The notes below the pieces were generated by a model. It did not search any database. It worked only from the letters and a program-made list of their open reading frames with translations, and had not been told where the DNA came from. From positions 1-45,875 of IMG/VR virus record IMGVR_UViG_3300042196_000317: 45,875 nt of DNA; one strand, 5' to 3'. The stretch's first letter is position 1, and every line of letters begins with the position of its first letter. Source of the stretch: a virus. Its lineage: Duplodnaviria; Caudoviricetes. Shown here in pieces: positions 8,181 through 43,414 of this stretch. A program made the position numbers and the translations under genes.

Positions 8181-8184
8181 CAAC

Positions 8185-8983: not shown

Positions 8984-8988
8984 GTCAC

Positions 8989-9024: not shown

Positions 9025-9050
9025 CCACCCCCCTACTTGGAGGTCACCCC

Positions 9051-13700: not shown

Positions 13701-16700
13701 CCGCGGATCGCACCCGGTAGGACCTTCAGGTCGGCGTCAGACAACGCACCCGCCGGCGTCGTGCCGAAGAAGAGCTTGTGCATCGCGTGGCCGGCCTCGT
13801 GCCCGAAGACCGGGACGTCGCTGATGTCGATCTGGCGCACGACCTGGGCGCGCGTCTTGAAGATGCCGAGCGCGCCCCGGAGCGGCCCCTTGCCTCGCAC
13901 CTGGCCGGCCGCCGTCTTCAGCCCGAGCCCGAGACCCGCGCCCTCGAACGCCTCCGACATCGCAGCCGACAGGCCCTCGACGATCGCGATCGGGCTCACC
14001 AGGTCGGCCGATGCCGCGGCCGGGTCGTCGTAGAACTTGCCCGCGGAGGGGAGGCGCTCACCCGCCTGCGCGGCCGGCGCGAGCGCGTCGACCGCCTCGC
14101 CGGTACGGACCCGGCGCAGCGTCGGGTTGAGCGTCTCGAGCGCGCGGCGCGCGGTCGGGCTCGGCCCGCGTCGGCCCATCCCACGCAGGCCGAAGCCCGC
14201 GCCGAGCGACGCGCCGAGGAACGCGGCCAGCACCGGGTCGACGTCGAGCTCGTCGGACGATGCCGCACCGGCGACCGCGCCGATCGCCGCGCCGCCGGCT
14301 GGGCGGATGAGCGCCGGGTGCGCGAAGCCGAGCCGTTGGCCCTTCTCAGCCACCTTCGCGGCCAGCTCGTCGGTGATCTCGAAGCCGAGATTGGTCGGTG
14401 GCGCCTTGTACGCCGGCACGGCCAGGATCTCTTCGAGGATCGCCGGCGTGAACGCACGATCCCACGCGGCCTGGCCCTCCGCCTTGGCTTCGTCGGTGAA
14501 AGTCCCGAGCAGCTCGTCAAAGTAGCGACGTCTCCCCCGCTCGAGCGCGTCCTCGCCACTGAGACCGTCCGCGAACGCGTGCCTGATGGCCTCACTCGCG
14601 TCGTAAATCTGCCGACCGAACCCGCCCTCGATCATGGAAGTGCGGAGCTTGCTGAGCTCAGGCAACAAGCCAGGCATCGAGGGCCCTTGCATGGAGACCT
14701 CGCTGATCCATCGACCACCGACGACCGCACCCGTGCCTGGTAGCGTCACGGCCTCGATCTGCACGTCGACGCCGAGCTCCTTGAGCAGGCGCCGAGCCTC
14801 TTTGACCGCGATGTCGTTGTAGAGCTTGTTATGACCGCGGCCTCCGATCTGCGTGTTCTCGTCGAGCTCAAGCTGGTGCGGGCCCTCCACTCGTGGCGCG
14901 GCGACGTCGCCGAAGGCCGACGCGGCCCAATCGTCGTACTGCTGGAGGACCTCGTCCGCGTCTCCGACGAGCTCGATGAGCTCCTCGCGAACATCGTTTA
15001 TGAGCACGAGCCTGATCGGCCCATCCGCTAGCACTCTGCCCGGGCGACCCTCTCGATAATCCGGCGTCGCGACGAGCATGTGGCCGCTGGGGTAGCTGTG
15101 ATAATCAGAGCGGCTCTGCATGTCGATGAGTTGGCGCGCGGGGGGAGACGCCCCCACGACAGCACGGGACTGTGCGAGCAGCTTCTCGGCGAGATCCTTT
15201 CCGATCGCGTCGCGCAGCGTCCTGGGGTAGGACCTGGGTTCGATGCGAGCCAAGCCGGTGGAGGCGTCGACGAACACCTCGGGATCCGCCTCGACCGGGT
15301 AGATCTCGTTAACCGTCTGTCGTCCGTTGGCGTCGAACCCGAGGAGCCGGCCGGTCGTCGGATCGTACTCGAGGCGCCGGATCCCGAACTGTGCGAGGCT
15401 GTAGTTCATCCCCGCCTGCTCGCCGGACGCCCACGTGAAGAAGCGCGCACCGCGGTCGATCGCCTCGACGAGCTCGCGCCGCAGCATCACACCCGTCCAC
15501 TGATTCGTCGACTTCCACGGAGCGTCGGGCACCGCGCGGGGGCGGGTCATCGCCACGTGCTCGGCCGCAGCGGGCGACGCACCGTGAGCGCGCACACGCT
15601 GGGCTCCGTCCTGGACCACGTAGCGCCAGTCCTCCGCGCTACCGAGAGCGTCCATGTCGCCCCGCTTCAGCTCATCGGCCAGCTCGGGTCGACCGTACGC
15701 CTTCGCCAGCCAGTCGGCGTCGCCGGCAGGATCGAACTCGCGCACGGTCCAGCCGGCAGGCATTTGCGTCTCGCGGTAGCCTTCCTTCCGGCCGACCTGG
15801 TGGTGGTCAGCCTGGCGCTCCTCGACGTGGTACACCGGCCCTATGTCTGAGCGGTCGAGCCTCACAGCCTCATCTCGCATCTTCGCGCGGGTGAAGCCCA
15901 TCACGCCCGGCTGTGGGAAGTGCTCGGACTTCACGAACGTGCTACCGCGCAGCTTGACCAGGAGCTCGTGGTAATCGTAGCCGCCAGGCTGCTGATAGTT
16001 GTCCGGGAACCTGGCGCCGCCTTCGCCGGCGCGCTCCTCCCCGAACGCCTCGACCTCACTTCTGTAACCCACGACCTCATCCATCACGCGTTCGAGCTCG
16101 ACCTGCATCTCCTCGATCTCTTCGGCGAGATCGGTGAGCGCGACCACGCGGTCCTCGACGTCATGGAAGACGCGACGCGGAACGGCATCCATCACATCGT
16201 CGATCTCGTTGTAGCCGAGGTGTGGGTTGTGCTGCCTCAGCGCCTCGGTGACCCGGAGCTCGAGCGCCTCGATGACTCTTCCCGGGGTACGCTCGCCCTC
16301 CCTGACCATGTCCGTGGCGGCCGTGAATAGATCGTCGAGCAGCGAGTCGCGCGGATGCCGTACCCGCATTTCGTCGGGCGGGCGATCAAGCGGGAGATGA
16401 TCGACCCACTCGAGGAGCCCGTCGTAGACATCCGTCTCGATGGCGTCGCGACCCACGCCGCCCGCGTCGTAGTCATCGATCCGCGCCATCAGGTCCAGCT
16501 CTTCGGACTCGGCTTCAGCGAGGCGCTCCCGCGCCTGCTCGAGGTCGTACAGCGCGTCCGGGTCGGCGTCCTCCGTGAGCACCTCCTCCTCGAGCCGCGA
16601 ACGGAGCCCGTGCTCACGCACGATTCCTTGGAGGTCCTCCGTCGTGTACTGCGTCTTCTCCGACCCGACCCACGACATGCGACGACTTATCAGCTCGAGC

Positions 16701-18943
16701 TCGTCGTCGGTCGCGCCCTGCTTCTTGAGCCAGCTCATCCAGACGTCTTGGGGCGCCTTGCCCGGCGTCTTGCCGCTCGCGAGCGCGACCTCGGCCTTCG
16801 TCCAGTACTTGCCGCTGAAGGCCGCGAAGCCGCCGCGGCCCGCGATCGGCGACCGAGCCAGAGCCCGCCCGATCCCCGGCAAGCCGAGCGCGACCGCCGC
16901 TCCGATGAGCGCACCGCGGGCGGGCGTGACCTCCGAGCCCTCGGGCACACCGACAGCGGCGCCGGCCGCCGCTCCGACCGCCGCGCGGCCGAGCGGACGC
17001 TGCGCCGCGCGCGCGATCTCCTCGAGGGGCCTCGACGCGGCGGCGTCCATCGACTTCGGTCGTGCGGCACGCGCGGCCGCAGACTCCGGCGCCTCACCCG
17101 GTCGGGGCTCGGCCGCTCGGGCCTGCCTGGCGGCCGCTGCTGGCGCGTCAGGCGCCTCACGGGGTGCCGGTGCGGTCTCGGTGGGGGTTTCACGTGAAAC
17201 GCCTCCTGGGGCATCCTCGCGCGTCCCCGGAGCGACGACGTCACGGGCGCGGGCCTTGCCGGATGCAGCCTTCGCGGCACCTGCGGCCTCGTCGGCCGCG
17301 GAGAACGTGTCGCCCACGCCGTAGCGGACGCTGTTCGTGAAGGGCGTGCCTTCGATCGGTCGCTCGCCGAACGCGTCGGAGATCGCGCGGCCGAGCTCGT
17401 CGGCCTGGCCCTTCGGCGCCGCAATCACGAACTCGTCACCGCCAGCACGGAAGAGGCCGCGCGGCTCGATCCCGGCCTCCCGTGCATGGCCCTTCACGAC
17501 CGCACCGATCTCGCGCAGCACGTCGTCGCCCGCCTCGAGCCCGAGGTTGTCGTTGACCGCCTTCAGGTTGTCGACGTCGAGGATCACGAACTCCGTGCCC
17601 GGCTCCGCGTCGAGCCTGCCCTTCGCACGCTGGAAGGCGGTCTGGTTGCCGAGCCCCGTGAGCGGGTCCGTGTACGCGTCGTCGAGCTCGGAGCGCACGG
17701 TCGGGTCCACGACCTCGGCCAGGCGCCGGCGCAGCGTCGGCCGCGCCGGCTTCTCGACCATCGCCTCGCGGGCGACCGTCTGGAGCTCGGCGGGCAGCTC
17801 GTCGATCGCGCGCTGCATCGCTTCGGCCTCGGCGCCGGTCGCTTCCGCGGCCGCCCGGCCGAGCTCGGAGGCTCGCGGCTTCGCTCGCGCCCGCTGAGCC
17901 GCCGTGAGCACCTCGCCGAACACCTCGCCGAGACCCCACCCGGTGAGCACCTCGAAGGCGCCCCTGGACACCGGATCGGCCGCGACCTCGCCGAGCTCCG
18001 TGTCGCCGGTCAGCTCGGCGAGCGCGCCGGCCATCGACTCCTCGGGCCCGGCCTGCGAGATCGCGACGTCGATCGGAGCTCCGGTGACGAACGACTGGAT
18101 CGCGCGCTGGGCCCGGCCCTCGGGCGACGCGAGCAGCCGCGTGAACCGACTGGCCTTCTCGAGACCGCCCGCCGCGCGCGCCACGCGCTGCGCCGCGAGG
18201 CCGGGCACCATGAACTGCGTCCCTTCCCCGACGAGCTGCGTGCCGATGTTGGCCGCCATGCCGAGGCCGGTATCGGCCTCGCCGTACGTTTCACGAGCGA
18301 GCTCGCGCCCCGCACGCAAGTTGGCGGCCGTACGATCGGCGCCGACGAGCTCGCTCGATCCGATCGCCGTACGATACCCGACCTCCGACGCTCCACGGCC
18401 GACCTGACGCGCGACGTCCTCGCCCATCGCGCCGACGCCACGGCCGGCTTTCTCGGCCTCCGCCGCCGGGCTGTACGAGATCGCCTCATCACCGCGGCGC
18501 GACGGACCCGCCTTCAGGGCGTCGAGCGCGCGCTGCATCAGTGGACGGTCGTCCTTCGGCTCCTCCTCCTCCGGCTCCTCCCTGTCGCGCTGGATGAACG
18601 GTTCACCGCCCGGCACGGCTCGAGCGAGCGTACTGCCCACCGCCCGCACGCCACGCCCGATCCGCGACAGCACGCTCGGCTCCTCGGGTTCCGGCTCCGG
18701 AGCGGCGGCCGCGTGCGGATCGTCGAGGTGGCGAGCCGGAGGCTGCGGGCCAGCGGACGCACCCGGCCCCGGTCCGCTAGCTCGGGCCGGTCGTCGAGTC
18801 AGCGGAGGCTCGGAAGTAGGACGTTCTTGCGTCGTAGCACCGGCGGGATCCGGCGCTCCTCCGGCCTCCTGCTGCTGGCGGATGCGGTCGAGCGTCTGCT
18901 GGCGACGGATCCGCGCGAGGAGATCCTGGCTCGTGGTGCCCAC
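10787..18943 (-). CDS. Giant polyvalent internal-virion/DNA-ejection protein (2718 aa): GGDEF domain, Gly/Ala hydrophobic hairpins, HExxH metallopeptidase-like region, C-terminal LPD38-like domain
   Basis: TDPLTGLGN..ILDVDNLKAVND..GDDVL..RAGGDEF (~17270-17680); GHEAGH..REGWAE (13787-13801); WKRDLFWLIKIG..IPKPFELG..ENAVNYSFFLRRPIVP (~11230-11715). Its position after the tail genes and two smaller ejection-type genes is typical of podoviruses. Confidence 0.85.
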   Translation of the reverse strand: MGTTSQDLLARIRRQQTLDRIRQQQEAGGAPDPAGATTQERPTSEPPLTRRPARASGPGPGASAGPQPPARHLDDPHAAAAPEPEPEEPSVLSRIGRGVRAVGSTLARAVPGGEPFIQRDREEPEEEEPKDDRPLMQRALDALKAGPSRRGDEAISYSPAAEAEKAGRGVGAMGEDVARQVGRGASEVGYRTAIGSSELVGADRTAANLRAGRELARETYGEADTGLGMAANIGTQLVGEGTQFMVPGLAAQRVARAAGGLEKASRFTRLLASPEGRAQRAIQSFVTGAPIDVAISQAGPEESMAGALAELTGDTELGEVAADPVSRGAFEVLTGWGLGEVFGEVLTAAQRARAKPRASELGRAAAEATGAEAEAMQRAIDELPAELQTVAREAMVEKPARPTLRRRLAEVVDPTVRSELDDAYTDPLTGLGNQTAFQRAKGRLDAEPGTEFVILDVDNLKAVNDNLGLEAGDDVLREIGAVVKGHAREAGIEPRGLFRAGGDEFVIAAPKGQADELGRAISDAFGERPIEGTPFTNSVRYGVGDTFSAADEAAGAAKAASGKARARDVVAPGTREDAPGGVSRETPTETAPAPREAPDAPAAAARQARAAEPRPGEAPESAAARAARPKSMDAAASRPLEEIARAAQRPLGRAAVGAAAGAAVGVPEGSEVTPARGALIGAAVALGLPGIGRALARSPIAGRGGFAAFSGKYWTKAEVALASGKTPGKAPQDVWMSWLKKQGATDDELELISRRMSWVGSEKTQYTTEDLQGIVREHGLRSRLEEEVLTEDADPDALYDLEQARERLAEAESEELDLMARIDDYDAGGVGRDAIETDVYDGLLEWVDHLPLDRPPDEMRVRHPRDSLLDDLFTAATDMVREGERTPGRVIEALELRVTEALRQHNPHLGYNEIDDVMDAVPRRVFHDVEDRVVALTDLAEEIEEMQVELERVMDEVVGYRSEVEAFGEERAGEGGARFPDNYQQPGGYDYHELLVKLRGSTFVKSEHFPQPGVMGFTRAKMRDEAVRLDRSDIGPVYHVEERQADHHQVGRKEGYRETQMPAGWTVREFDPAGDADWLAKAYGRPELADELKRGDMDALGSAEDWRYVVQDGAQRVRAHGASPAAAEHVAMTRPRAVPDAPWKSTNQWTGVMLRRELVEAIDRGARFFTWASGEQAGMNYSLAQFGIRRLEYDPTTGRLLGFDANGRQTVNEIYPVEADPEVFVDASTGLARIEPRSYPRTLRDAIGKDLAEKLLAQSRAVVGASPPARQLIDMQSRSDYHSYPSGHMLVATPDYREGRPGRVLADGPIRLVLINDVREELIELVGDADEVLQQYDDWAASAFGDVAAPRVEGPHQLELDENTQIGGRGHNKLYNDIAVKEARRLLKELGVDVQIEAVTLPGTGAVVGGRWISEVSMQGPSMPGLLPELSKLRTSMIEGGFGRQIYDASEAIRHAFADGLSGEDALERGRRRYFDELLGTFTDEAKAEGQAAWDRAFTPAILEEILAVPAYKAPPTNLGFEITDELAAKVAEKGQRLGFAHPALIRPAGGAAIGAVAGAASSDELDVDPVLAAFLGASLGAGFGLRGMGRRGPSPTARRALETLNPTLRRVRTGEAVDALAPAAQAGERLPSAGKFYDDPAAASADLVSPIAIVEGLSAAMSEAFEGAGLGLGLKTAAGQVRGKGPLRGALGIFKTRAQVVRQIDISDVPVFGHEAGHAMHKLFFGTTPAGALSDADLKVLPGAIRGELQALSDAIGQPDKLREGWAEVWRRYLDNPDALGREAPQTLAFIEQRLTGFPELTEAWGLAREDWRRYRESDALSRISSKVSVGDREVEVLTVADRWSRFRTSVIDDMEPVRRITQAIRETVGIDSFAEEADALARLVRGSVGVGMHFLEHGSLNFHTLKKVGPALAEVLGPVKPDLDDFRLYMVSRRAQELHTRDKMTGFRAEDVDSAVRQLEAKHGRTFTRAFDGIQKWNESLLRYLRDAGVVSPDSYKAILDLNQSYVPFYRVIEGGRAGGLGETYGHLFSPIKQLKGSGRDVIDPLESLAKNALLYTQVAQKQQVSRALAALADKEGVGPILEELGTPIKRSQFRLGEIEKQLEDVLPGADQLLGEARAKAKKRYEAATAGMTPEEVAASGIVLEDPAEEILAFYRPGDFMGRQNTISVLREGKRVYYEVDAELYASLEGLNREQLDGWARFLGLPARTLRAGATLAPEFLIRNPARDQVAAFIQSEYGIVPGLDLARGMFELLRKGDAYQQWLSAGGYRAALTSLDRNTMQASVRQLVEAGGVENVIKHPFDALQALSALLEDGTRMGEFLRARKKLGTSKQALQRAALASREVSIDFARHGAKTAAVRNLSAFWNARLQGYDRMFRAAKSNPRRFAAKAFGIITMPSLLEYYANMDDPDYWEQPQWKRDLFWLIKIGDSFAAIPKPFELGLVFGTLPVRILDSAIGGPGGGHELRGFLEELVKGEVTGTIPTPNAIQPLLENAVNYSFFLRRPIVPRSEQEIHPELQAGPYTSEAAKMLARWTSGAPILEDVVGSPRQIDNLLFAWTGGLGRLATEVTDPLLEGRVPFLQEPDVPEIGKRFTELPGIRGVTDPQAGFSSESVERFYQLHQQARVAVNSLRFLDRIQDAEAYERELNDPEMAELRSREPDLRAAADDLAELRAQLEAIRRDPDMTSQEKRQAVDELGLEARRIAQSVLGRQLPGD
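17187..17200. promoter_or_regulatory. parS-like palindrome GTTTCACGTGAAAC (encodes VSRET)
   Basis: Perfect 14-bp core of the bacterial chromosomal parS consensus TGTTTCACGTGAAACA; only the outer bases differ. Confidence 0.6.
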
Positions 18944-20878: not shown

Positions 20879-21079
20879 CTACTCGGTATAGAGAACGTGG
20901 GCGCGGTAGCTGGCCGCGCTGTCGACGTCGCCCGCCTCGAAGCTCATCCCGACGACGCGCTCCTCAGTCCTCGAGGACAGCCACGCTTGGAGCTCGTCCT
21001 GGAGCGCCTCGAGCGTCGCCTGCTCGAAGAGCTCGACCTTCACGTCGCGCGCCAGGAGGATGTCGAGCAGCATCGTCAC
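20879..21079 (-). CDS. Small hypothetical protein (possible tail-fibre chaperone)
   Basis: GTGA-coupled to the preceding tail gene. Confidence 0.55.
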   Translation of the reverse strand: MTMLLDILLARDVKVELFEQATLEALQDELQAWLSSRTEERVVGMSFEAGDVDSAASYRAHVLYTE

Positions 21080-27162: not shown

Positions 27163-28539
27163 TTAGACCGACTCGGCCGGGATGCTCTCGGCCGGGCTGG
27201 TGAAGCCTTCGAGGCGCCAGCAGCGCTGGGCCGACTTGATCGCGATCTCCATGTGGGCCGTGCCGTACGCGAAGAAGGCATCCTTCACGCCCGTCGCGTC
27301 GGTGACCTGACGCCACAGCGATCCGGTCGTGTCATCCCACTGGAACTCATGCAGGATGAACTTCCTGAGCTGCTTCGAGTCGATCCCGAAGACGAGCGTC
27401 GACGGAAGCTTTCGGGCCGTGCGGAACGTGACCTGCCGCGTCCCGCCGAAGTACATCAGGATGCCCTTTCTGCCGATCGCATAGGACCGCGGGTCGTTGA
27501 CCACGCGGTCGTCCCGGATCTCGATCCACACCGCGTCGAACGCCTCATCCGACATCACGATCATGTCGACCATGCCGCCGCCGCGGTGCCGGGACTGCCG
27601 GTCCGTCTGGAGCGTGGCGAACTCCGTCAGATCCGCGCCGTTGAGGTCCCGCACGTACGAGCGGAACCACAGGTGGACGTTGCGGTCGATGTTCTGAAGC
27701 GTCTGCACGATGCCGCCGTCGTCGATGAGCCCGAGCAGACCCATGACGTCCTTCCCGGCGGAGTTCGAGGCTGCGTCGCCCTCGAACAGGTAATCGCCGT
27801 CCACGAGGTCGGCGACCGTGTCGAGCGTGAGCGCGTTGTTGTCCCAATCGACCTGGTCGACCACGTACGCGGTCGCCCTCGGCGCCGTGCCGTCGATGTT
27901 CGGGCTCGCGCGCAGGCGCAGGCCCCTACGGAACTGCATCAGCTCGTGATCGAACCCGGCGATGCCGAGCGTCGAGCCCACGACGACGGGGTTCGAGATC
28001 ACCCCCTCGTTGACCCTCGCTCGGATGCCCGAGCCGTCGCCGACGAGCTGGCGGTCGAGCTCGTCGACCAGCCCTTCCTTGAAGAGCGGGAACTGCTCGT
28101 CCGACCACGTGATGAAGGCCGCCTTGTCGCGCTTGATCTTCTTCAGCACTTCGGCGGTTTCCTCGAGGGAACCGACGACCTTCTTGAGCGTCACGCGCCC
28201 GTTCTCGGCCTTCGCCGCGTTCGCCTGCGGGATGTAGTCGTTCTGCGTACGAGAGCCCCAGCTTCCGGGCGACTGGTAGAGCTGAGAGGTCTCGAACCAT
28301 CGACCCTCGGGCCCCTGCTTGACCTCGCCCTCGGGCATGAAGTCCATCAGCTCGGTGTCGTAGACCGTCTCCATGATGACTGTGTCATCGAAGACGATCT
28401 TCATCAGCTCCGTGTAGTCGTCGGTCGTCGCCGTGTCGCCTACCACGAAGGGCAGGGCGAGCAGCGCCTCGGGCACGTAGCCGAGGAACGCTGCCAGAGC
28501 GAGACCGACGCCCACGAAGAGCTTCTGGCTCTGCTTCAT
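27163..28539 (-). CDS. Major capsid protein with hydrophobic N-terminal leader
   Basis: Portal-scaffold-capsid synteny, size, downstream hairpin, and HK97-type motifs (LKKVVGSLEET, ELDRQLVGDGSG, GLLGLIDDG..LQNIDR). Confidence 0.8.
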   Translation of the reverse strand: MKQSQKLFVGVGLALAAFLGYVPEALLALPFVVGDTATTDDYTELMKIVFDDTVIMETVYDTELMDFMPEGEVKQGPEGRWFETSQLYQSPGSWGSRTQNDYIPQANAAKAENGRVTLKKVVGSLEETAEVLKKIKRDKAAFITWSDEQFPLFKEGLVDELDRQLVGDGSGIRARVNEGVISNPVVVGSTLGIAGFDHELMQFRRGLRLRASPNIDGTAPRATAYVVDQVDWDNNALTLDTVADLVDGDYLFEGDAASNSAGKDVMGLLGLIDDGGIVQTLQNIDRNVHLWFRSYVRDLNGADLTEFATLQTDRQSRHRGGGMVDMIVMSDEAFDAVWIEIRDDRVVNDPRSYAIGRKGILMYFGGTRQVTFRTARKLPSTLVFGIDSKQLRKFILHEFQWDDTTGSLWRQVTDATGVKDAFFAYGTAHMEIAIKSAQRCWRLEGFTSPAESIPAESV

Positions 28540-28593
28540 GGGTTGGCTTCTCCAGGTGTTTGATTGCTTTGCGGGCGCCTGGACCCGCCCCGC

Positions 28594-29979
28594 TCAGAGC
28601 TCCTTCTTCTCCTTCAGATTCAGCGCTCTCGCGAGACGGTTTCGACGCTCGAGGTACGACTCACCCGGAACCTTCTGGAAGCCCGCAGGGGCCGCGGATC
28701 CAGCACCAGCCGGTGTGGTGGCGGACGCGCTCTTCCTGCGCTTCAGTCGATCCCGCACGGTGGCGACCTCGGCACGGTCGACTCGGGCTCCCTTGGCAGG
28801 CTTCTCGCCGACCTCGGGCTTCTTGCCGGAGCTGTTCGTGGTAGGTGCCTCCGCCCTGCTGGCCCCGCGCCCGTTGGACGCAGGGAACTTGTACGCCTCG
28901 AGCAGGCCGATCTCGGCGAGGATCGCGGGGATCTTGGCCGGCTCGAGAGTGGTCAGCTTGTTGTCGCGAGCGTAGAGCTGGAGCTCCCGCGCCGCGGTGC
29001 GGACGAACATGTCCGCCACGTTCTTGGTCGCACCCTCCGGGACGACGGAGCTGATCGCGGTCCGCAGGTCCCGGGTGTACGCCTTCTGCTGGTCGGCCTC
29101 ACCGCTCGAGGCCAGCCGATCGCGCTCACGCTTCAGCCGGTCGCGTTCGGCTTTCGTCTTGGCGAGCTCCCTCGACTCCGGGTCCCGCGTGTAGTGCTGG
29201 ATCCGCTGGGCGAGGCCGCGCAGCGCTTCGTCATCGAGCTGGACCAGCAGCTCGTCGACGACCTGGCCGCGGAGACCCTCGTCGACGTGCTGCACCAGGA
29301 AGCCGACCGGGTCGGCCTGCATCGTCTCGTAGATCGCGTCGAGCTCGGCCCGGTCGTTCTCGACCGCAGCGACCGCAGCCTCGGCGTCGGCCCGGTACAT
29401 GTTGCCGTTCTTGAGCTGGTTGATGCGCTCGACGACGTCCTTCGGGTCGATGCCGAGCGCCTCGAGGAACTCGACGTCGATCGGGAGCTCGAAGTCCTCG
29501 CGGCCCTTCTCGCGCGCCGGCACGGCGACGTAGATCACCGCGTCGTCGTCGGCCTCCGCCGCCTGGGTGTCCTCGGCCTCCTCCTCTTCACCCTCCTGGA
29601 CCTCCTCAGCGGCCTCCTCCTGCTCCTCGGCCTCCTCCTCCTGGTCCTCGCCCTCCTCGGCGGTCTGCTGCGCTCCTGCGGCCGCGGCCTCGGCCGCGCG
29701 CTGCTCCTCGGCGACCTCGGCGCGGAGCTCGGCCATCCGGTCAGCGAACGGCGTCGGCCGTGCGGCGGGATCGGGGGGCTCCTCGGTGCCCTCGTCGCCA
29801 CCCTCGCCGGCGTCCTCCCCGCCCTCGTCACCTCCCCCGTCGTCCCCGCCGGCGGCATCGTCGTCCGTGTCGCCGAGCACCAGGGGAAGCGTCATCGCGA
29901 GCGCGTCGGGCGCGTAGCCGAGCACGGCGGCGAGGAAGAGGACGAGCGCGGCGAGGAGCTTCGAGGTCTGTCGAGTCAT
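28594..29979 (-). CDS. Capsid scaffolding protein with hydrophobic N-terminal leader
   Basis: ATG at 29979 is TGATG-coupled to the portal stop; very acidic, coiled-coil body with basic C-terminus; lies between portal and capsid. Confidence 0.75.
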   Translation of the reverse strand: MTRQTSKLLAALVLFLAAVLGYAPDALAMTLPLVLGDTDDDAAGGDDGGGDEGGEDAGEGGDEGTEEPPDPAARPTPFADRMAELRAEVAEEQRAAEAAAAGAQQTAEEGEDQEEEAEEQEEAAEEVQEGEEEEAEDTQAAEADDDAVIYVAVPAREKGREDFELPIDVEFLEALGIDPKDVVERINQLKNGNMYRADAEAAVAAVENDRAELDAIYETMQADPVGFLVQHVDEGLRGQVVDELLVQLDDEALRGLAQRIQHYTRDPESRELAKTKAERDRLKRERDRLASSGEADQQKAYTRDLRTAISSVVPEGATKNVADMFVRTAARELQLYARDNKLTTLEPAKIPAILAEIGLLEAYKFPASNGRGASRAEAPTTNSSGKKPEVGEKPAKGARVDRAEVATVRDRLKRRKSASATTPAGAGSAAPAGFQKVPGESYLERRNRLARALNLKEKKEL

Positions 29980-32264
29980 CACGCGACCTGTTCGGGTGAG
30001 AGCTGTTCGGACCCGGGCCCCATGATCTGTTCGGTCTGGCCCTGGATCTCGGCCGCGGTCGCCGCGGCGGCGGCCTGGACGGGCGCCTGCACGGCCATTT
30101 GCCGCTCCGCGCCGAGCAGCATCGCCTCCTGGCCGGCGACGATGAGCCGCTGGCGGTAGAGCACCATCTCCTGCATCACCGGGGGGGCGATCTTCAGGTA
30201 CTCGGGGCTCTTCATGAACCGCTCGAGCACGCTCTGGTGGAGCACGTGGTCGTACCACTCGAAGATCGGGACGGCGACGGCCGGCGTGCCCGTGAGCAGC
30301 TTACCGACGTTCTGCTCGGCCGTGGCGCGGTCCGGGCCGCCGGGCCGTGACGCGCGGCCCATGTGCGGGAAGCGAGCCTGCTCGAGGAACGTGTTGATCG
30401 CCTCGGGCGCCATCGGATCGCCCCACACGCCCGACTGCCAGAAGCGCCAGACTCGGTTCTGGCGCTCGCCCCGGCCCTCGGGCAGCATCGACTCGACGTC
30501 GGGCTCCGCGTTGACCGTGCCCTCCTCGAAGAGCGCCGGGTAGACCGTGATCGTCCGCGCGATGTTGTCGTCGCCGACGACCTGGATCGTCTTCTCGACG
30601 TCGAACACCGAGGGCGTCATCACCCGCCAGTCCTCGCCGAGCCGCGCGAGCTCGATCACCATCCGACGCATCGGATCGGCGAGCGGCCGGTCGGCATTGA
30701 ACCGGAGCTCCTTCACGAGCTCGCCTGACGCGTCCGCGGTCGGGCTCCGCCCCTCCTGGCCGCCCATGTGGCCGAGCTGCTCGATCTCGTCGGCGAGGCG
30801 GTCGGCCGACTCGTAGACCTCGGGCCCGAGCCGGCCCGGGTGGACGAACTCGATGAGCGGAGCCGCGGAGCCCTTCCTGGACGCGTAGACCTGGAAGCCG
30901 GGCACGTTCTTCACATCGCCGTCGCGCAGCCCCGAATCGAGGTCGATGACCTGGATCGGGTTCGCCACGATCGTCGCGTGCTGGATGCCCTGGGCGTGCA
31001 GCCGGTTCCTCGAGCGCACCGGCCCGTTGAGCATCTCCTGGCCGCTCGTACCCTGGGGCCTCCCGGGCAGGTTGTAGAAGTCGAAGCACCGGATGGGCGA
31101 CGTGTACTTGAACGGGTGCGTGCGCGGTCCGTCGCGCAGGACCTTCTTCGAGCCCGCGACGACGCAGAGTCGACCGCCGGGTGAGCCGCCCGGGATGCGT
31201 TGCGTGCCGGGCATCCGCGTCGGCTTCTGCCAGAGCTCGTAGACCGAGACGAAGTCGCGGCCCTGGGCGGCGGTCTCGAGGATCGCGCCCCGGCGCCCCT
31301 CGGCCGCACCGAACAGGCCCGAACCGTAGAGCAGCCGCATGAAGATGCCCGTCGAGTCGGACGTCTCCTCGCCGGTGATGTCCGGGTCGAGCTCGACGCC
31401 GAACGCTTCATAAGCCTGGAGCGGGCTCAGGAACGAGCGCTGGATGTGGTACGCCTTCTTGTGCCAGGGGATGTGTTCGCCCCACTCGCCTCGGGCCTCG
31501 AGGCACGTCAGCACGTCGACGTCGAGGCCGCCCTCGTAGAACACGTGCGGTTCGCCCTCCTCGAGGACCTGGCCGCCTTCCTCCTGCAACAGCCGCGCAC
31601 GCGGAGCGCCCTGCTCGTCGAGCGGCACGTCGTCGATCTCGCGCTCGATCGGCTCGCCCGACGCGTCGAGGATCGGCTGGCCCTGCGCGTTCAACAGCCG
31701 GAGCGTCGCCCGGTCGATCGCCTGGATCGGCATCCCCTTCATCGCGTCGACCCGGCTCTTCAGGTGCGCACGGCCGCCGGGCAGCATCCACGACGTGAGC
31801 CGGTCTATCACCTCGAGCATCCCGACTTCGCGCCACCAGTACTTGAAGATCGGGTCCATCACCTCGGCCAGCTCGGCGTCGATCCGGTCCGGGCCCGGCT
31901 GCCACACGATGACCGGCGGGTTCTCGTTCATGCGAGCGTGCGTGAGCACCCACCACCGAAAGATCTGGTTGAGCACCGGCATGTGGCGCCAGCGCTTCTC
32001 GTCGTCGTTCAGGTGCTCCGAGAGGTCGACGAACTTCTGGCGGAGGTCCGACCAGACCGTCCAGTGCTGGCCGAGGAGCATCCGGACGTTTTCCTCGACC
32101 TGGCGGTCACGCTGGCGCAGCCGGTCGTCCTGCTCGTGCCAGAGCCCCATCACGTACTCCGCGCGGAGCGCGTCGTGTACGTCCGGCTCGAACGGATCGG
32201 CCCGGAGCGGCGGGATGTCACCGATCCGCGTGAAGCGCTGGCCCCTCGTTCCGGCTGAACTCAT
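29979..32264 (-). CDS. Portal protein (podovirus/P22-like, 761 aa)
   Basis: MLLGQHW..PVLNQI..NPPVIVWQPG..DAELAE N-terminus, ASGELVKEL, Q/A-rich C-terminal barrel; synteny. Confidence 0.85.
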   Translation of the reverse strand: MSSAGTRGQRFTRIGDIPPLRADPFEPDVHDALRAEYVMGLWHEQDDRLRQRDRQVEENVRMLLGQHWTVWSDLRQKFVDLSEHLNDDEKRWRHMPVLNQIFRWWVLTHARMNENPPVIVWQPGPDRIDAELAEVMDPIFKYWWREVGMLEVIDRLTSWMLPGGRAHLKSRVDAMKGMPIQAIDRATLRLLNAQGQPILDASGEPIEREIDDVPLDEQGAPRARLLQEEGGQVLEEGEPHVFYEGGLDVDVLTCLEARGEWGEHIPWHKKAYHIQRSFLSPLQAYEAFGVELDPDITGEETSDSTGIFMRLLYGSGLFGAAEGRRGAILETAAQGRDFVSVYELWQKPTRMPGTQRIPGGSPGGRLCVVAGSKKVLRDGPRTHPFKYTSPIRCFDFYNLPGRPQGTSGQEMLNGPVRSRNRLHAQGIQHATIVANPIQVIDLDSGLRDGDVKNVPGFQVYASRKGSAAPLIEFVHPGRLGPEVYESADRLADEIEQLGHMGGQEGRSPTADASGELVKELRFNADRPLADPMRRMVIELARLGEDWRVMTPSVFDVEKTIQVVGDDNIARTITVYPALFEEGTVNAEPDVESMLPEGRGERQNRVWRFWQSGVWGDPMAPEAINTFLEQARFPHMGRASRPGGPDRATAEQNVGKLLTGTPAVAVPIFEWYDHVLHQSVLERFMKSPEYLKIAPPVMQEMVLYRQRLIVAGQEAMLLGAERQMAVQAPVQAAAAATAAEIQGQTEQIMGPGSEQLSPEQVA

Positions 32265-32297: not shown

Positions 32298-32543
32298 CTA
32301 TTCGGACTCCACCGAGGTCCCATCCGTCAGCACCCACACGAGCACGCGCAGATACGGGGTGAGCCTGGGCTCGAAGTCGGCGCGGATCTTGGCGTTGCAC
32401 GCGATCACATGCGCCTCGACCGTGCGCCACGAGATCGGAGGGTCGAGGGCACGCGCGATCTCGGAAAGCGACCGTGCTCCGCCAGCGATTGCGTCGATGA
32501 CCTCGAGCTCGCGGGTCGTGAACGGCGGCGGCTGGTCGATCAC
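32298..32543 (-). CDS. LuxR/GerE-type HTH protein
   Basis: FTTRELEVIDAIAGGARSLSEIARALDPPISWRTVEAHV..CNAKI; GTGA-coupled start. Confidence 0.7.
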   Translation of the reverse strand: MIDQPPPFTTRELEVIDAIAGGARSLSEIARALDPPISWRTVEAHVIACNAKIRADFEPRLTPYLRVLVWVLTDGTSVESE

Positions 32544-32887
32544 GACTCCTGGATCCATCCCTGCGCCCGGTCGCCGAGACCACGCGCGAGGAGCGTCCGC
32601 CACTCCTCTTCGGCCTGCTCCGTGCTGAACCCTTCGTCGAGCATCTCACGGAGGAACGTCGGAGGCACGTCCGCGAGCTCGGCGTCACCCGTGTTCTTCG
32701 GCTCGTACGGGCTCCGGGTGACGGGTGACGGCCTACTGTCCGGAAACGGGAGCACGCCCTCCCGGCGCTGAGCGTCGATGCGCCGGCCGCGCTCGCCGAG
32801 GTAGAGACCGACCGTGACCAGCGACCCTGCCATGAACCCGACGCCGAACGCGGCCGCGGCGACCAGTACGAGATCGGAGCCCATCAT
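32540..32887 (-). CDS. Small membrane-anchored protein
   Basis: N-terminal TM LVLVAAAAFGVGFMAGSLVTVGLYLG; ATGA-coupled. Confidence 0.6.
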   Translation of the reverse strand: MMGSDLVLVAAAAFGVGFMAGSLVTVGLYLGERGRRIDAQRREGVLPFPDSRPSPVTRSPYEPKNTGDAELADVPPTFLREMLDEGFSTEQAEEEWRTLLARGLGDRAQGWIQES

Positions 32888-34298: not shown

Positions 34299-34675
34299 TA
34301 CTCGAGCCTGATACCGTCCTGGCGCTCGCGGATCAGCTCGGCCGTGGCGATCTCCTCCGCCTCCACCCGGTCCCGGAGCGCAAGCTGCTCCCACGGGCTC
34401 TTGTTCAGCACGCGACCGCGCCAGCCCCCGAAGAGCATCCGCCACTTCCGCCGCAGCCAGTTGCGGACGCCGGCGTACTCCTTCAGGTAGACCTCGTGGT
34501 GGTACCACGCGAGGAGCTCCCACACGTGGTTGCGCCGCGCGTACTCGCGGCCGTCCGGCGGCAACCGCCACTGTCTGATCTTCGGCATCGGCGGGAGCTT
34601 CATCGCCTCGAGGCGCGCCTGGGTCTCCGCCTCGAGCTGCTCCTGGATCAGCGCGTTCTTCGGACCCTTCGCCAT
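34298..34675 (-). CDS. Hypothetical protein
   Basis: MAKGPKNALIQEQLEAE...; TGATG-coupled. Confidence 0.6.
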   Translation of the reverse strand: MAKGPKNALIQEQLEAETQARLEAMKLPPMPKIRQWRLPPDGREYARRNHVWELLAWYHHEVYLKEYAGVRNWLRRKWRMLFGGWRGRVLNKSPWEQLALRDRVEAEEIATAELIRERQDGIRLE

Positions 34676-35040
34676 CAGAGGTACATGTCGTGCAGCGCGT
34701 GAACGATGGCCATGAAGAGGCTGTCCTTGAGGCGCTGCTCGAGCGGGAGCTCGTGGTACGGCAGGATGCACGGATGCGTTTTCGCGTCCGGGTCCTTCAC
34801 GGCTCCGTAGGTCCACCCGGCCTCGAGCTTCTCCTTCATCCAGCTCTCGTGGGAGTCGATGGGGTTGGCCAGCGGGTTGTCCTGGTGGAAGAGCACGCCG
34901 TTGATCGCGCTCTCACGCTGCCAGTCGGGCGCGTCCTCCCACGACGGTTGAGAGTCGTCGCCGATCGTCGAGCAGTACGCGCGATTGGCTTCGTGACAGA
35001 CCCTCGCGATGGCCTCAGCCTCCGCCATCTCCTCGATCAC
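34675..35040 (-). CDS. RyR-domain protein
   Basis: IARVCHEANRAYC...SHESWMKEKLEAGWTYGAVKDPDAKTHPCILPYHELPLEQRLKD is the RyR repeat signature. Confidence 0.85.
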   Translation of the reverse strand: MIEEMAEAEAIARVCHEANRAYCSTIGDDSQPSWEDAPDWQRESAINGVLFHQDNPLANPIDSHESWMKEKLEAGWTYGAVKDPDAKTHPCILPYHELPLEQRLKDSLFMAIVHALHDMYL

Positions 35041-35345
35041 CCGTTCCTCGCGATGCCGGCGTTGGCCGCCATGACGCATTCCTCGAGCTTCGTGAGCGCG
35101 ACGTGGAGCTCGCGGCCGGGCGGCACGAGGTCGACGAGCCGGTGCGCGTACTCGCGGGCCCGGTCGCGGATCTCGTTGTACTTCGGGACCTGCGCGTCGG
35201 TGGGCGCGTGGTACTTGAAGTCGCGCTCGATTCGGTCGTGCAGATCGAGTCGCTCCGTGACGCCTCCCGCTCCGGGCTGGCCCTGGTCATCGGGTCGACG
35301 GAGACCGCCGTCGTGGGGAGCGGCCCGGCTGATCGGGTCGTTCAT
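35037..35345 (-). CDS. Acb2/Tad1-like helical-hairpin protein (candidate immune-signal sponge)
   Basis: FKYHAPTDAQVPKYNEIR...PPGRELHVALTKLEECVMAANAGIAR. Confidence 0.7.
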   Translation of the reverse strand: MNDPISRAAPHDGGLRRPDDQGQPGAGGVTERLDLHDRIERDFKYHAPTDAQVPKYNEIRDRAREYAHRLVDLVPPGRELHVALTKLEECVMAANAGIARNG

Positions 35346-35710: not shown

Positions 35711-37462
35711 TCAGTCGACCCTTTCCGTGAGGTGAGCTGGCAGTGGACTCGGTGATCGGGGCACGCGATCGACGAGCCTGCGCGCCTCGAGCATCCGGTC
35801 GAGGCCCTCCTCGCTGAACGCCTGGAAGTCCTCGTCCTCGTCCGGGTGGAGACGGTGACGAATCCAGTTCCAGATCATCACCGCGTCCGCCCTGTCCGGG
35901 CTCCGGCCGAGTCGTTCAGCGATCAGGGCCTTCTCTTCGCATGTGATCTTACCGAGTACGGGCTTCCAGCGCATCGCCCGCAGCTCTTCGTGCAGCTCGG
36001 CGTCGGGTGGCAAGGCGACGCGGTCCATTTGGAGATCGAGCGAGAGGCGCCACGCCATTTGCGCCCGGACGTTGCGATAGAGCACGTCCTCGCGCACCGG
36101 GTTGCCGTGCTCGTCGAGCTCCGTCTCGTCGATGCGCGGCCGCGCGGCCGCACCGGGGTTGATCGACTGCACGTACAGCCCGAGCGACTTCAGCATGTCG
36201 ACCGTGCCGCCGCCGTACCCGCCGCCGACGTCGATCCCGACGTTCTGCTCGCTGATGTCCCGGGTCGCCATCATCGCGGCGATCCGGACGCCGAGCGCGT
36301 GGACGTCGGGGCACGGGAACGCCGGGACCTCGTCGAGATGGGCGCCGAGCCCGTCCGCGATCGCGGCCAGGTCACCGGCCTCCGAACGCGCGACGTCGAC
36401 GCCGAGCCCCGGTAGGCCGTAGCGCAGATCCCCGGTCCTCCACCGTTCGGCCGCGCGGTCGAGCCACACCTGGCGGATGAGCGCGGTCTGGTGTTCCGGA
36501 GGGCTGATTCCGCGGACGCGGGACTGGAAGTGCCGGTGCTCGCGACCGTAGCGGCGCAGCCGGCGCGCGATCGACATCCTCGAGACCGCGCCCGGCACGA
36601 TCATCACGTCGCCCTTCAGGTCCCGCCACTCGGGATCCCGCACGTTGTTGACCACCACGTTCGGGTGATCGAGCGCGCTGATCCGGATGTGAACCGTGTC
36701 TGGCAGGATGCAGAACTGGTGGAGCGCGTCGTCCTGCGAGTCGGGGTTGCCGACGTACTGACGCAGGTTGTGGGGCGCCGTGCAGGTGTTCTCGAGGCCC
36801 GCTGACGCCGCGTGGTGGAACTCCTGCGACTCCTCGACCGAGATCAGCATGTGGGGGGCGTGCATGCCCGCGGCGCCGGCGGCGATCTCCGTGGCCGCGC
36901 CGACCTTCACGCCCTGGCCGAACGCGCCCCAGCCCGTCATCTCGCCTTCGCGGATCTTGCCGTCCATTCGGACCCGGAGGACCCCGAGGTGCGCGGAGGG
37001 GAAGACCACTCGGAACCGCGGCCAGAGCTTGCCGAGCTCCATCCACGAGTACTCCTCGAGCTGCTCCTTCTTCGCCGCGAAGTCGAACGCTCTGGCCGAC
37101 TGCCAGCTCGCCAGAAACCAGAGCTTCGTCAGCGCGAGACCGAAGCTCTTGCCGGTCCCGGTCGCGCTCTCGATCCCGACGTCTTTCCAGTCGACGAGCG
37201 CACCGAACCAGGCCGCGATCGGGTCCGGCGTGCCGTCCCACACGTGGCCCTCGTACTCGGGCAGCTCGCTCCAGACCAGGGTCTCCCGCCGGATCCCGAG
37301 CTCAGAGACGCAGAAGCCCACCGGATCCGTCTGGTAGTGCTCCATCCCCGGCGGGGCCTCAGCCGACGTGCTGAGCTGCTCTGACGCCTTCCTGAGCCCC
37401 TCAGCGACCACCGACCGGGGCCGCGCCTCCCACCACGCACCACTGAGTGCGGAGCCTGTCAC
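35711..37462 (-). CDS. terL: Terminase large subunit
   Basis: Walker A SATGTGKS, Walker B ISVEES, motif III VGNP, nuclease LGVDVAR...IDVGGGYGGG...RSPDRADA. Confidence 0.92.
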   Translation of the reverse strand: MTGSALSGAWWEARPRSVVAEGLRKASEQLSTSAEAPPGMEHYQTDPVGFCVSELGIRRETLVWSELPEYEGHVWDGTPDPIAAWFGALVDWKDVGIESATGTGKSFGLALTKLWFLASWQSARAFDFAAKKEQLEEYSWMELGKLWPRFRVVFPSAHLGVLRVRMDGKIREGEMTGWGAFGQGVKVGAATEIAAGAAGMHAPHMLISVEESQEFHHAASAGLENTCTAPHNLRQYVGNPDSQDDALHQFCILPDTVHIRISALDHPNVVVNNVRDPEWRDLKGDVMIVPGAVSRMSIARRLRRYGREHRHFQSRVRGISPPEHQTALIRQVWLDRAAERWRTGDLRYGLPGLGVDVARSEAGDLAAIADGLGAHLDEVPAFPCPDVHALGVRIAAMMATRDISEQNVGIDVGGGYGGGTVDMLKSLGLYVQSINPGAAARPRIDETELDEHGNPVREDVLYRNVRAQMAWRLSLDLQMDRVALPPDAELHEELRAMRWKPVLGKITCEEKALIAERLGRSPDRADAVMIWNWIRHRLHPDEDEDFQAFSEEGLDRMLEARRLVDRVPRSPSPLPAHLTERVD

Positions 37463-37677: not shown

Positions 37678-38448
37678 TCACTCGCCGTCCACGAAGCAGC
37701 CGCAGCCACCGATCTCGAGCATGTCGACCTGGTCGCCGCCCTCGAGCCGCTCACGCAACGCCCTGAGCGTGAGCGGCGTCACGGAGCCGCCCGTGCGGTC
37801 TCGCAGGATCGAGACGTCGCCAAGCTCGGCGCGGAGGCGCTCCTCGTTCTGCTCCCACTCGGCGAACCGACACGGGTCTGCGGCAAGCAACCGGGCGAAG
37901 CCGCCCTGGCCCATCTTGATGCAGCCGCCCCCGCAGTTGGCGTGCGGCATGCCGAGCTGGTAGAGCCGCTGCCGCTCGAGCCCGGCGAGCTCCGCCCACT
38001 CGTGCAGGTCGTCTTTCGTGAGGTAGGGCGGATCGCACAGCGGCGCCTCGTAGACCCACGGCCGCTTGCGCTCGCGGAGTCGCTCGTATCGATGGATCTC
38101 GCTCCAGTCGATGCCGACGTAGACGATCACGTTCTCGGGCTCGTAGTGCTCGGCGAGCCACGCGTCGGCCAGATCGCGCTTCAGCACGCGCGAGCACGGA
38201 TCGACCCGCGAGTTGCCGAGGAAGCGCACGTCGGAAAAGACCTGCCACGGCGTCCGTCCGTCCGCGATCTCGACGAGCTGGCCCCCGACGTTCGCCGCGG
38301 CCTCACGCAGGAAGCGGTACGTGTCCGCGTCCTCGATCAGCGTGTCGGTGAAGAGGAGGACCAGGTCCTCGGTCCCGTGCTTCTCGGCCACGCGCCGCGC
38401 GGCCGCCCACGAGCCGACGCCGCCCGAGAACATCACGACGCGGCTCAC
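37678..38448 (-). CDS. PAPS-reductase-like / PP-loop adenine nucleotide alpha-hydrolase
   Basis: VVMFSGGVGSW, LLFTDTLIEDADTYRF, PCSRVLK, HANCGGGCIKMG, GGCGCF. Confidence 0.8.
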   Translation of the reverse strand: MSRVVMFSGGVGSWAAARRVAEKHGTEDLVLLFTDTLIEDADTYRFLREAAANVGGQLVEIADGRTPWQVFSDVRFLGNSRVDPCSRVLKRDLADAWLAEHYEPENVIVYVGIDWSEIHRYERLRERKRPWVYEAPLCDPPYLTKDDLHEWAELAGLERQRLYQLGMPHANCGGGCIKMGQGGFARLLAADPCRFAEWEQNEERLRAELGDVSILRDRTGGSVTPLTLRALRERLEGGDQVDMLEIGGCGCFVDGE

Positions 38449-40060: not shown

Positions 40061-40738
40061 TCAACCTCCTTGGGGGGGAACGCGGAAGACCATGTTGCGC
40101 TCGTCGAGCGGCTGGCCCTCGTACCCGAAGCCGGCGAGGAAGCGGGTGATCGGTTCGGTCCGGTCGCCACCGCTCCCGCTGTGGACCTCCACGAAGAGCA
40201 CCGGGGCCTCCGTCGCCAGGGTGACGGCCGCGCCGGATAGCGCGGCGAGCTCGTGGCCCTCGACGTCGACCTTGATGACGGCCACCGGGCGGCGCCGGTC
40301 CAGGTCGTCGATCCGCACCACTTCGACGTCGCCGGCCGGGTCCAGCATCAGCTTCCCGGTCGAGCAGATACCCTTCGCCTCGTCGTCGATCTTCATCCGG
40401 CCGAAGCCGGGCTCCGAGCTCGCGGCCCACCGCCTGACGATCCAGTCGACGTACGTCTTCGTCGACGCATAGAAGCGGGTCAGGTTCTCGTGGAGCCGCT
40501 GAAACCCGGCCGGGTTCGGCTCGAGGGTGATGACCTCGCGGGCGCCGGCGCGGACAGCGAGCATCGAGTAAAGACCCGTGTACGCGCCGACGTCGATGAC
40601 GCACCCGTGCGGGTCGTTCTCGATTGCCTCGACGAACGCGGCCACGGTCTCGGGCTCGTACGGACCCCGGCCCGACTCGACGTAGAGCGCGATCCGGTCG
40701 CGCTCCGTCCGGAGCTCCACGCCGTGTACGACCGTCAC
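40061..40738 (-). CDS. FkbM-family SAM-dependent methyltransferase
   Basis: YEPET, IDVGAYTGLYS, LEPNP, IKVDVEGHELAALSGA, PVLFVE. Confidence 0.9.
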   Translation of the reverse strand: MTVVHGVELRTERDRIALYVESGRGPYEPETVAAFVEAIENDPHGCVIDVGAYTGLYSMLAVRAGAREVITLEPNPAGFQRLHENLTRFYASTKTYVDWIVRRWAASSEPGFGRMKIDDEAKGICSTGKLMLDPAGDVEVVRIDDLDRRRPVAVIKVDVEGHELAALSGAAVTLATEAPVLFVEVHSGSGGDRTEPITRFLAGFGYEGQPLDERNMVFRVPPQGG

Positions 40739-43184: not shown

Positions 43185-43414
43185 CGCCCCGGGGGAAGCA
43201 CGAGGGCCCGTCCCTCGCCGAGATCGAGGAAGCTGGCCGCGAGATCGGCCACATCATCGGCTCCCTTCTGCCCGAGGGCGTAGGGTTCGCCCTGCATCTA
43301 TGGAGCTTCGGCGACAGACCCGGGTGGGCCACGTTCGTGTCCAACGTCGATCGTAAGGATCACCTCGACGCGCTCCGCGAGATGATCTCCTTGGCGGAAG
43401 AGGAGGAGTTGTGA
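43181..43414 (+). CDS. Hypothetical phage protein
   Basis: GFALHLWSFG...FVSNVDRKD..DALRE; coupled overlaps. Confidence 0.65.
   Translation: MTPRGKHEGPSLAEIEEAGREIGHIIGSLLPEGVGFALHLWSFGDRPGWATFVSNVDRKDHLDALREMISLAEEEEL

What the first reader, a model, noticed from the sequence alone, without database searches (positions are those of the whole stretch)
28432..29979. Major capsid and scaffold share a homologous signal-peptide-like N-terminal leader
Seen: the capsid starts MKQSQKLFVGVGLALAAFLGYVPEALLA-LPFVVGDT (28432-28539) and the scaffold starts MTRQTSKLLAALVLFLAAVLGYAPDALAMTLPLVLGDT (29866-29979). Both follow the pattern basic n-region, hydrophobic core, LAAxLGYxP(E/D)AL, LPxVxGDT, while the rest of the two proteins is unrelated. 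Established: staphylococcal phage 80alpha capsid and scaffold share a short leader cleaved by the host protease Prp, but that leader is not membrane-like. Inference: this may be a different maturation system, in which a shared membrane-anchoring or export-like leader tethers procapsid assembly to the membrane and is removed by a host (signal or intramembrane) peptidase, perhaps at ALA|x or G|D. I recognised no phage prohead protease.
Basis: partly seen in the sequence, partly recalled or inferred. Interest (0 to 1): 0.85.

Follow-up and report, generated by a model that had tools for sequence, protein, structure and literature searches.

The report
Membrane-type leader on phage capsid proteins
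The coat protein and the likely scaffolding protein of this uncultured tailed phage begin with the same greasy 33-35-residue add-on peptide, which likely holds them on the inner face of the host membrane until it is cut off, possibly by a membrane-embedded protease of a kind that a few related phages encode beside their head genes.

Summary
The HK97-fold capsid protein and the probable scaffold share a homologous leader (19/36 identical); the rest is unrelated. The scaffold copy is closest to this phage's own capsid leader (rank 1 of 101). The leader is mainly a capsid feature: 101 of 181 non-redundant relatives have it (57 of 57 in the close clade). Scaffolds carry it only here and in two close relatives; 28 of 29 capsid-leader phages with scaffold DNA lack it. 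That argues against export. It occupies the place of the ancestral start Met, so the likeliest cut is V33|G34, as with Prp, which was not found in the probable host group (Gemmatimonadota). It differs from host signal peptides in having a second hydrophobic segment after a conserved Pro. New here: 3 of 16 leader-bearing relatives encode a compact site-2 (M50) intramembrane protease between terminase and portal, against 0 of 9 leaderless ones (p=0.28). This phage has none; hosts usually do. Best model (about 0.4): a cytoplasmic-face membrane anchor removed by a site-2 protease. Membrane binding and cleavage are untested. I found no such leader in print; this scan noted similar leaders before on other DNA.

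The parts
27163..28539 (-). Major capsid protein, 458 aa, HK97 fold, podovirus type
   Evidence: NF033394 capsid_maj_Podo 91.3 bits over cut-off 80; phrog_14242 E 7e-17; AlphaFold model matches HK97-fold capsids
28441..28539 (-). Capsid leader, residues 1-33: basic n-region, hydrophobic segment 1 (7-20), Pro23 break, Ala28, Pro30, hydrophobic segment 2 up to Val33. Gly34 (28438-28440) aligns with residue 2 of leaderless relatives
   Evidence: Close clade of 57: P23 54/57, A/G28 57/57, P30 54/57, G34 56/57, T36 53/57; residue before the Gly is Met in 16/57; leaderless N-termini
28550..28553 (-). Shine-Dalgarno-like GGAG, 10 nt before the capsid ATG
   Evidence: sequence; similar motif in 32 of 35 relatives
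28594..29979 (-). Probable scaffolding protein, 461 aa (acidic N-terminal half, helical middle, basic C-terminal end)
   Evidence: position between portal and capsid here and in relatives; alignment; nearest named Atlas cluster is phage scaffold at 0.87, a lead only; no Pfam or PHROG hit. Identity is inferred
29875..29979 (-). Scaffold leader, residues 1-35, a diverged copy of the capsid leader; Gly36 follows
   Evidence: nearest of 101 capsid leaders is this phage's own
29977..29989 (-). Portal stop overlapping the scaffold start (TGATG), with AGGT upstream
   Evidence: sequence
29979..32264 (-). Portal protein, 761 aa, P22-like, no hydrophobic leader
   Evidence: phrog_156 E 7e-13; PF16510 below cut-off; N-terminal hydropathy
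32540..32887 (-). 115-aa protein with one N-terminal membrane segment. Its homologues directly follow (L008) or lie one gene after (L006) the M50 protease gene; rival substrate for that protease
35711..37462 (-). Terminase large subunit; the relatives' M50 gene lies between this gene and the portal and was not found here
   Evidence: phrog_2 E 3e-11; tblastn and PF02163 negative in the window

Best explanation
The capsid protein and the probable scaffold start with a homologous 33-35-residue hydrophobic leader that likely folds as a Pro-kinked hairpin in the cytoplasmic face of the host inner membrane and is likely cut off just before the conserved Gly, most likely by a site-2 (M50) intramembrane protease that this phage would take from its host. 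Shown: the leader, its conservation, its place at the ancestral start Met, its duplication onto the scaffold, and M50 genes in the head module of three related phage lineages. Inferred: membrane insertion with both ends in the cytoplasm, concentration or timed release of coat subunits for prohead assembly at the membrane, the cut site V33|G34 (L35|G36 in the scaffold), and the enzyme.
For: (1) Compartment logic: capsid and scaffold must meet, yet 28 of 29 leader-bearing phages have leaderless scaffolds, and this phage's portal and terminase have no hydrophobic N-terminus, so the leader should not move the protein out of the cytoplasm. (2) It is longer and shaped differently from host signal peptides: median non-polar span 31.5 vs 20 residues; residues +1..+6 after the AxA-like site are hydrophobic in 63 of 81 leaders vs 3 of 35 host peptides. 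L006 and L008 have unbroken 34-38-residue apolar stretches. P23 is kept in 54/57. A Pro-dependent monotopic hairpin is known in stomatin (PMC5456319, passages). (3) Leaderless relatives start M-G/A/S-x-T; the leader's last residue takes the Met's place and is Met in 16/57. A cut before Gly would restore the ancestral end, as Prp does for L27 (PMC9405229 table passage). (4) At least 8-11 gains or losses on capsid trees suit a removable tag. (5) Compact M50 proteases with intact HExxH and NLxPxxxxDG motifs lie between terminase and portal in L004/L104, L006 and L008/L028. A fifth is on a phage-like contig of the MAG that holds leader-bearing capsid L080. The five form one side of a 100/99 branch against 11 host enzymes. 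Homologues were found in 75 of 101 genomes of the probable host class. [quoted passage not shown]
Against: No experimental data on binding, topology or cleavage. The first 28 residues fit a Sec/SPase I signal well (A/G at 28 in 57/57, Pro six residues before, basic n-region in 56/57, acidic 12 residues after the Gly in 57/57), and the positive-inside rule (established knowledge) predicts N-in/C-out. The M50 association is not significant: 3 of 16 vs 0 of 9, Fisher p=0.28. PF02163 found nothing in this phage or in 9 other leader-bearing phage records (no phage record known to carry the gene was run as a control). The phage M50 has a rival substrate in the neighbouring single-pass membrane protein, present in 12 of 22 leader-bearing and 5 of 15 leaderless loci. 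The M50 tree has long branches. G34 conservation is also explained by ancestry alone. In 80alpha, uncleavable capsid protein is viable (PMC5744158, passages), so removal need not matter. The host is inferred from binned MAG contigs of relatives.
Confidence: 0.4

Rival explanations
1. The leader is a removable assembly or chaperone tag in the Prp manner, cut by a soluble or other host protease at or near the Gly; its hydrophobicity serves chaperone or subunit binding rather than membrane insertion.
For: Same logic as 80alpha, where the leader sits on capsid and scaffold and in other phages on other virion proteins (PMC5744158, passages); it takes the place of the start Met; no M50 in most leader-bearing phages.
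Against: Prp was found in 0 of 151 genomes of the probable host class; no host protein with the whole leader in 201 genomes; a mean 28-residue apolar span is far more membrane-like than Prp leaders.
Confidence: 0.2
2. The leader is a true Sec signal peptide: the protein is targeted to SecYEG and cut by signal peptidase I after Ala28, with part or all of it exported.
For: Canonical n/h/c layout, A/G at -1 in 57/57, A/L/V at -3 in 53/57, Pro at -6, acidic early mature region; the weak host matches to the leader profile look like ordinary signal peptides.
Against: Scaffold usually, and portal and terminase here, lack a leader; conserved hydrophobic +1..+6 residues and G34 are not explained; Leu at -3 in 22/57 is atypical (recalled); L076 has no basic n-region.
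Confidence: 0.15
3. The leader is not removed; it stays as a hydrophobic arm inside the shell that packs between subunits or recruits lipid.
For: No dedicated protease in this genome; cleavage is dispensable for the 80alpha capsid.
Against: Clean losses back to an ancestral-type start in nested lineages (L007, L033/L039, L036/L084); a copy on the scaffold, which normally leaves the head; no membrane segment in the portal.
Confidence: 0.15
4. The leader is a tolerated extension of little function, and the scaffold copy is a neutral duplication.
For: 80 of 181 capsids and most scaffolds lack it.
Against: Present in 57 of 57 close-clade capsids at 55-100% identity with near-invariant P, A/G, P, G; three diverged scaffold copies keep the Pro, Ala, Pro and Gly.
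Confidence: 0.1

Closest known systems
Prp-cleaved leaders of Staphylococcus phage 80alpha capsid and scaffold (PMC5744158, PMC9405229; passages read)
   Same: One leader on two unrelated head proteins; no phage prohead protease; the cut would restore the ancestral N-terminus; similar motifs occur on other virion proteins of other phages.
   Different: 33-35 hydrophobic residues instead of 13-14 with an LxLQxF|A motif; Prp and a long L27 were not found in the probable host class; here the capsid copy is the conserved one and the scaffold copy is rare, whereas the 80alpha scaffold N-terminus is essential.
Pro-sigmaK and SpoIVFB (site-2 protease, M50) of Bacillus subtilis (PMC11486902; passages read)
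   Same: Hydrophobic N-terminal pro-sequence on a cytoplasmic protein; the phage-borne proteases match MJ0392, RseP and SpoIVFB by profile.
   Different: Substrate would be a structural protein made in hundreds of copies; the leader is longer, has a basic n-region and a Pro break; the phage enzymes are about 143 aa and lack the CBS domain; no cleavage is shown.
Membrane-associated prohead assembly of phage T4 (PMC9026906; passages read)
   Same: Head assembly on the cytoplasmic face of the inner membrane, with release by proteolysis.
   Different: T4 anchors through the portal and YidC and uses its own protease gp21; here the anchor would be on each coat subunit.
Sec signal peptides cut by signal peptidase I, including M13 procoat (recalled, not read)
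   Same: n/h/c layout, Pro at -6, small residue at -1.
   Different: Extra hydrophobic segment ending in a conserved Gly; the passengers have to assemble with leaderless cytoplasmic partners.

Membership tests
HK97-fold major capsid proteins of tailed phages | HK97 fold; gene in a terminase-portal-scaffold-capsid module | tested here: met
Prp/L27 leader system | Short LxLQ(F/L)F|A-type motif on the substrate | tested here: not met
   leader sequence against the motif table
Prp/L27 leader system | Host encodes Prp (PF04327) | tested here: not met
   0 of 151 genomes of the probable host class; control rings in 3 of 14; host inferred, genomes incomplete
Prp/L27 leader system | Host L27 has an N-terminal extension | tested here: not met
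   18 of 19 loci examined printed an N-terminus, all with Met (17) or Val (1) directly before AHKK
Sec/SPase I signal peptides | Basic n-region, hydrophobic core, small residues at -3/-1 after a helix breaker | tested here: met
   (-1 is A/G in 57/57; -3 is A 24, L 22, V 7); by inspection, SignalP not available
Sec/SPase I signal peptides | Polar mature N-terminus and usual length | tested here: not met
   hydrophobic +1..+6 in 63/81 vs 3/35 host peptides; span 31.5 vs 20 (host set picked by heuristics)
Sec/SPase I signal peptides | Passenger is exported and cut by LepB | not testable with these tools
   needs reporter fusions; partners lack leaders
Tat or lipoprotein signal peptides | Conserved twin-Arg motif, or lipobox Cys | tested here: not met
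   neither window leader has RR or Cys; no conserved RR or Cys column
Peptidase M50 (relatives' gene, not in the window) | HExxH and NxxPxxxxDG zinc ligands in a membrane protein; PF02163 over cut-off | tested here: met
   4 of 4 scanned score 32-56 bits, cut-off 27.2; motifs invariant in 5 of 5
Site-2 protease substrates (Pro-sigmaK type) | Leader binds the protease and is cut in the membrane | not testable with these tools
Site-2 protease substrates (Pro-sigmaK type) | Protease co-occurs with the leader | tested here: inconclusive
   3/16 vs 0/9, p=0.28; host homologues in 75/101 genomes

The most novel reading that the evidence does not exclude
A large group of Gemmatimonadota podophages makes its HK97 coat protein as a membrane-anchored precursor and matures it by regulated intramembrane proteolysis: a portable hairpin leader, added to the coat, sometimes the scaffold and perhaps a tail fibre, is clipped by a site-2 protease that some of these phages have captured and shrunk into their own head module.
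Probability: 0.3. Interest if true: 0.87.

Novelty: new variant of a known kind. Interest (0 to 1): 0.66.

Why it matters
Tailed-phage coat proteins are taken to be soluble cytoplasmic proteins matured by soluble proteases. A membrane-anchored coat precursor released by an intramembrane protease would be a new route to head maturation. It would give a substrate to a common but poorly assigned bacterial site-2 protease subfamily, and would explain a phage-borne M50 gene. It can be tested in E. coli with three genes from one related phage. It also warns annotators that a signal-peptide call on a capsid protein need not mean export.

Tried and rejected
Dual start or wrong start call: 32/35 SD-like motifs at the leader ATG, 7/35 start codons before the junction Gly, none with SD; rejected. 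Assembly artefact: rejected. Prp/L27: not found. Host protein carrying the same leader: 12 of 201 genomes gave weak, partial matches (E 1e-3 to 9e-3); those printed look like ordinary signal or membrane segments. Leader-specific partner gene: the large head and tail families occur with and without the leader. A weak GlpG rhomboid match on the 64-aa ORF 20879-21073 (E 0.0025, 17 bits vs cut-off 335) has no membrane segment; rejected. The only peptidase-like window gene is an endolysin. Tail-fibre leader-like segments in L011/L118, L013 and L120 sit just before the fibre's anchor domain and end in hydrophobic-Gly-x-Thr, but score 7.7, 8.5 and -2.4 bits (12.4 and 6.9), within the host signal-peptide range, so homology is not shown. 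Two viral scans with the phage M50 alignment returned only the four contigs already known. 13 GenBank phage records hold M50-like matches at 30-39% identity, all unannotated and not followed. ESM Atlas gave nothing above 0.76 for the leader. The AlphaFold model of the M50 was poor (pLDDT 64) and was not searched. No RNA holder was listed. A scan with the scaffold alignment could not be run. Caveats on counts: leader labels are a hydropathy cut (KD11 >= 2.0); L049 and L110 look truncated, and P0063 and P0073 are protein-only, so some 'none' labels may be wrong; capsids too short or cut at contig ends were dropped before the 234/181 count.

Full report
The window is a 45,875-nt virus record rated complete, 69% G+C, held by sediment metagenomes. 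On the minus strand it encodes terminase, a P22-like portal, a 461-aa probable scaffold and a 458-aa major capsid protein. The capsid model matches HK97-fold shells, closest to Arthrobacter phage Jasmine. The scaffold is named from its position and make-up only. Leader-bearing relatives lie in MAGs labelled Longimicrobiales and Gemmatimonadota (L080, L083) and in one more genome of that phylum, so the host is probably a gemmatimonad; this is inference from binned contigs.

The leaders are 53% identical over 36 residues and the remainders are unrelated. An HMM trained on 96 capsid leaders finds the scaffold leader as the best non-capsid hit among 20,529 ORFs, at 31.7 bits against at most 12.2 for 70 host signal-peptide-like proteins picked from 553 called genes in 60 stretches of four genomes. 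Of 101 capsid leaders, the nearest to the scaffold's is this phage's own, which points to duplication within this lineage. Both starts have translation signals, relatives have them in 32 of 35 loci, and none has an SD-backed internal start. A contig from another run carries the same leaders.

The leader belongs first to the capsid. All 57 close-clade capsids have it, and 101 of 181 non-redundant family members. Trees need at least 11 changes on 181 rows (FastTree) and 8-9 on a chosen 55 (IQ-TREE); distant relatives are leaderless. On scaffolds it is rare: 1 of 29 leader-bearing phages with a whole scaffold gene, the window itself, plus the closest relative G459, whose scaffold start lay at the other end of its record, and the protein pair P0085/P0096. 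P0086 has a short hydrophobic remnant, and P0087-P0089 have none. One of 40 leaderless-capsid loci (L098) has a hydrophobic scaffold start. Since capsid and scaffold must meet, a leader that exported the capsid would strand it from its scaffold in most relatives; this is the main argument against export.

Anatomy: basic n-region, about 14 apolar residues, Gly-x-x-Pro, a second apolar segment with Ala/Gly28 and Pro30, then Gly34-x-Thr. The first 28 residues look like a signal peptidase I substrate, and the charge pattern favours N-in/C-out; this counts against my model. But the apolar span is longer than in host signal peptides, and the six residues after the AxA-like site are hydrophobic in 63 of 81 leaders against 3 of 35 host peptides. 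A helix-Pro-helix of about 30 residues is how stomatin stays on one face of a membrane, and its Pro47Ser mutant becomes transmembrane (PMC5456319, passages); that is an analogy, not a test. Leaderless relatives begin M-G/A/S-x-T, and the residue before Gly34 is still Met in 16 of 57, so the leader ends where the ancestral Met stood. Cutting before the Gly would restore the ancestral end, as Prp does for L27.

Which enzyme? None was found in this genome. Prp was found in 0 of 151 genomes of the probable host class, and L27 is short there. Clustering neighbours showed a compact M50 site-2 protease between terminase and portal in L004/L104, L006 and L008/L028, all with capsid leaders. A fifth lies on a phage-like contig in the MAG holding L080, on a different contig from that capsid. 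The five keep their catalytic motifs, are about 70 residues shorter than host enzymes, and group apart from 11 of them, on long branches. Host homologues occur in 75 of 101 genomes. SpoIVFB, an M50, removes the hydrophobic pro-sequence of Pro-sigmaK and frees it into the cytoplasm (PMC11486902, passages). Against this link: the split is 3 of 16 vs 0 of 9 (p=0.28), nine other leader-bearing records and this one gave no PF02163 match, and a single-pass membrane protein next to the M50 gene is an equally plausible substrate.

Mechanism, committed at about 0.4: the leader inserts as a hairpin in the cytoplasmic leaflet and gathers coat subunits (here also scaffold) at the membrane, where proheads form as in T4 (PMC9026906, passages). 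A site-2 protease, host-made for this phage, then cuts before Gly34 and releases subunits or proheads. Sequence, conservation, distribution and the M50 genes are shown; topology, cleavage, site, enzyme and purpose are inferred. Rivals: a Prp-like tag cut by another host protease (0.2), a true Sec signal (0.15), a retained internal arm (0.15), a near-neutral extension (0.1). In 80alpha the purpose of cleavage is itself unclear, and uncleavable capsid is viable (PMC5744158, passages).

Novelty: six literature searches (listings and abstract starts only) showed no paper describing a membrane-type leader on an HK97 capsid or scaffold, or a phage M50 in a head module. The library lacks most subscription papers, and I read no supplements. 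This scan's earlier notes report the same or similar leaders on other DNA but returned none on a phage site-2 protease; they are unchecked and are not counted as support. I class the finding as a new variant of a known kind (a leader on head proteins, probably removed by a host protease), with a 0.3 chance that it is maturation by intramembrane proteolysis.

Noticed in passing
L004:3025-3450 (= L104:5025-5450), L006:2692-3120, L008:2946-3380, L028:2889-3323, L225:391-828 (-): Compact (about 143 aa) phage-borne M50 site-2 proteases with intact motifs; no PHROG family
   Followed up: yes
L011:11203-13116, L013:7827-9785, L120:14387-16217: First tail-fibre gene has a leader-like hydrophobic segment before its anchor domain; paralogous fibres start at the domain. 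Homology to the capsid leader is not significant
   Followed up: partly
window 32540-32887 and 32298-32558 (-): Single-pass membrane protein followed by a LuxR-like HTH gene just before the portal; the membrane protein type occurs in 17 of 37 loci; possibly a membrane-linked regulator pair
   Followed up: partly
window 10787-18943 (-): Giant (about 2,700 aa) probable ejection protein with GGDEF and LPD38 domains
   Followed up: no
window 35037-35345 and 34675-35079 (-): Acb2/Tad1-hairpin protein (possible anti-defence sponge) next to a RyR-domain protein
   Followed up: no
window 40735-41379 (-): Protein containing an RNA polymerase alpha C-terminal domain
   Followed up: no
window 37678-38448, 40061-40738, 44172-45158, 45155-45694 (-): PAPS-reductase-like gene, two methyltransferases and an alginate-lyase-like gene near the terminase
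   Followed up: no
L076/L164/L166 capsid start; L098:4126-5184; scaffold starts of L030, L339, L347, L349: Distant relatives with other hydrophobic or aromatic N-terminal extensions: a capsid leader with no basic region that keeps the ancestral Met (L076), and short scaffold extensions
   Followed up: no
window 6417-10417 and 42175-44134 (+): Plus-strand early-type gene clusters including DUF932 and DUF6874; Rad52-like recombinase at 4662-5735 (-)
   Followed up: no
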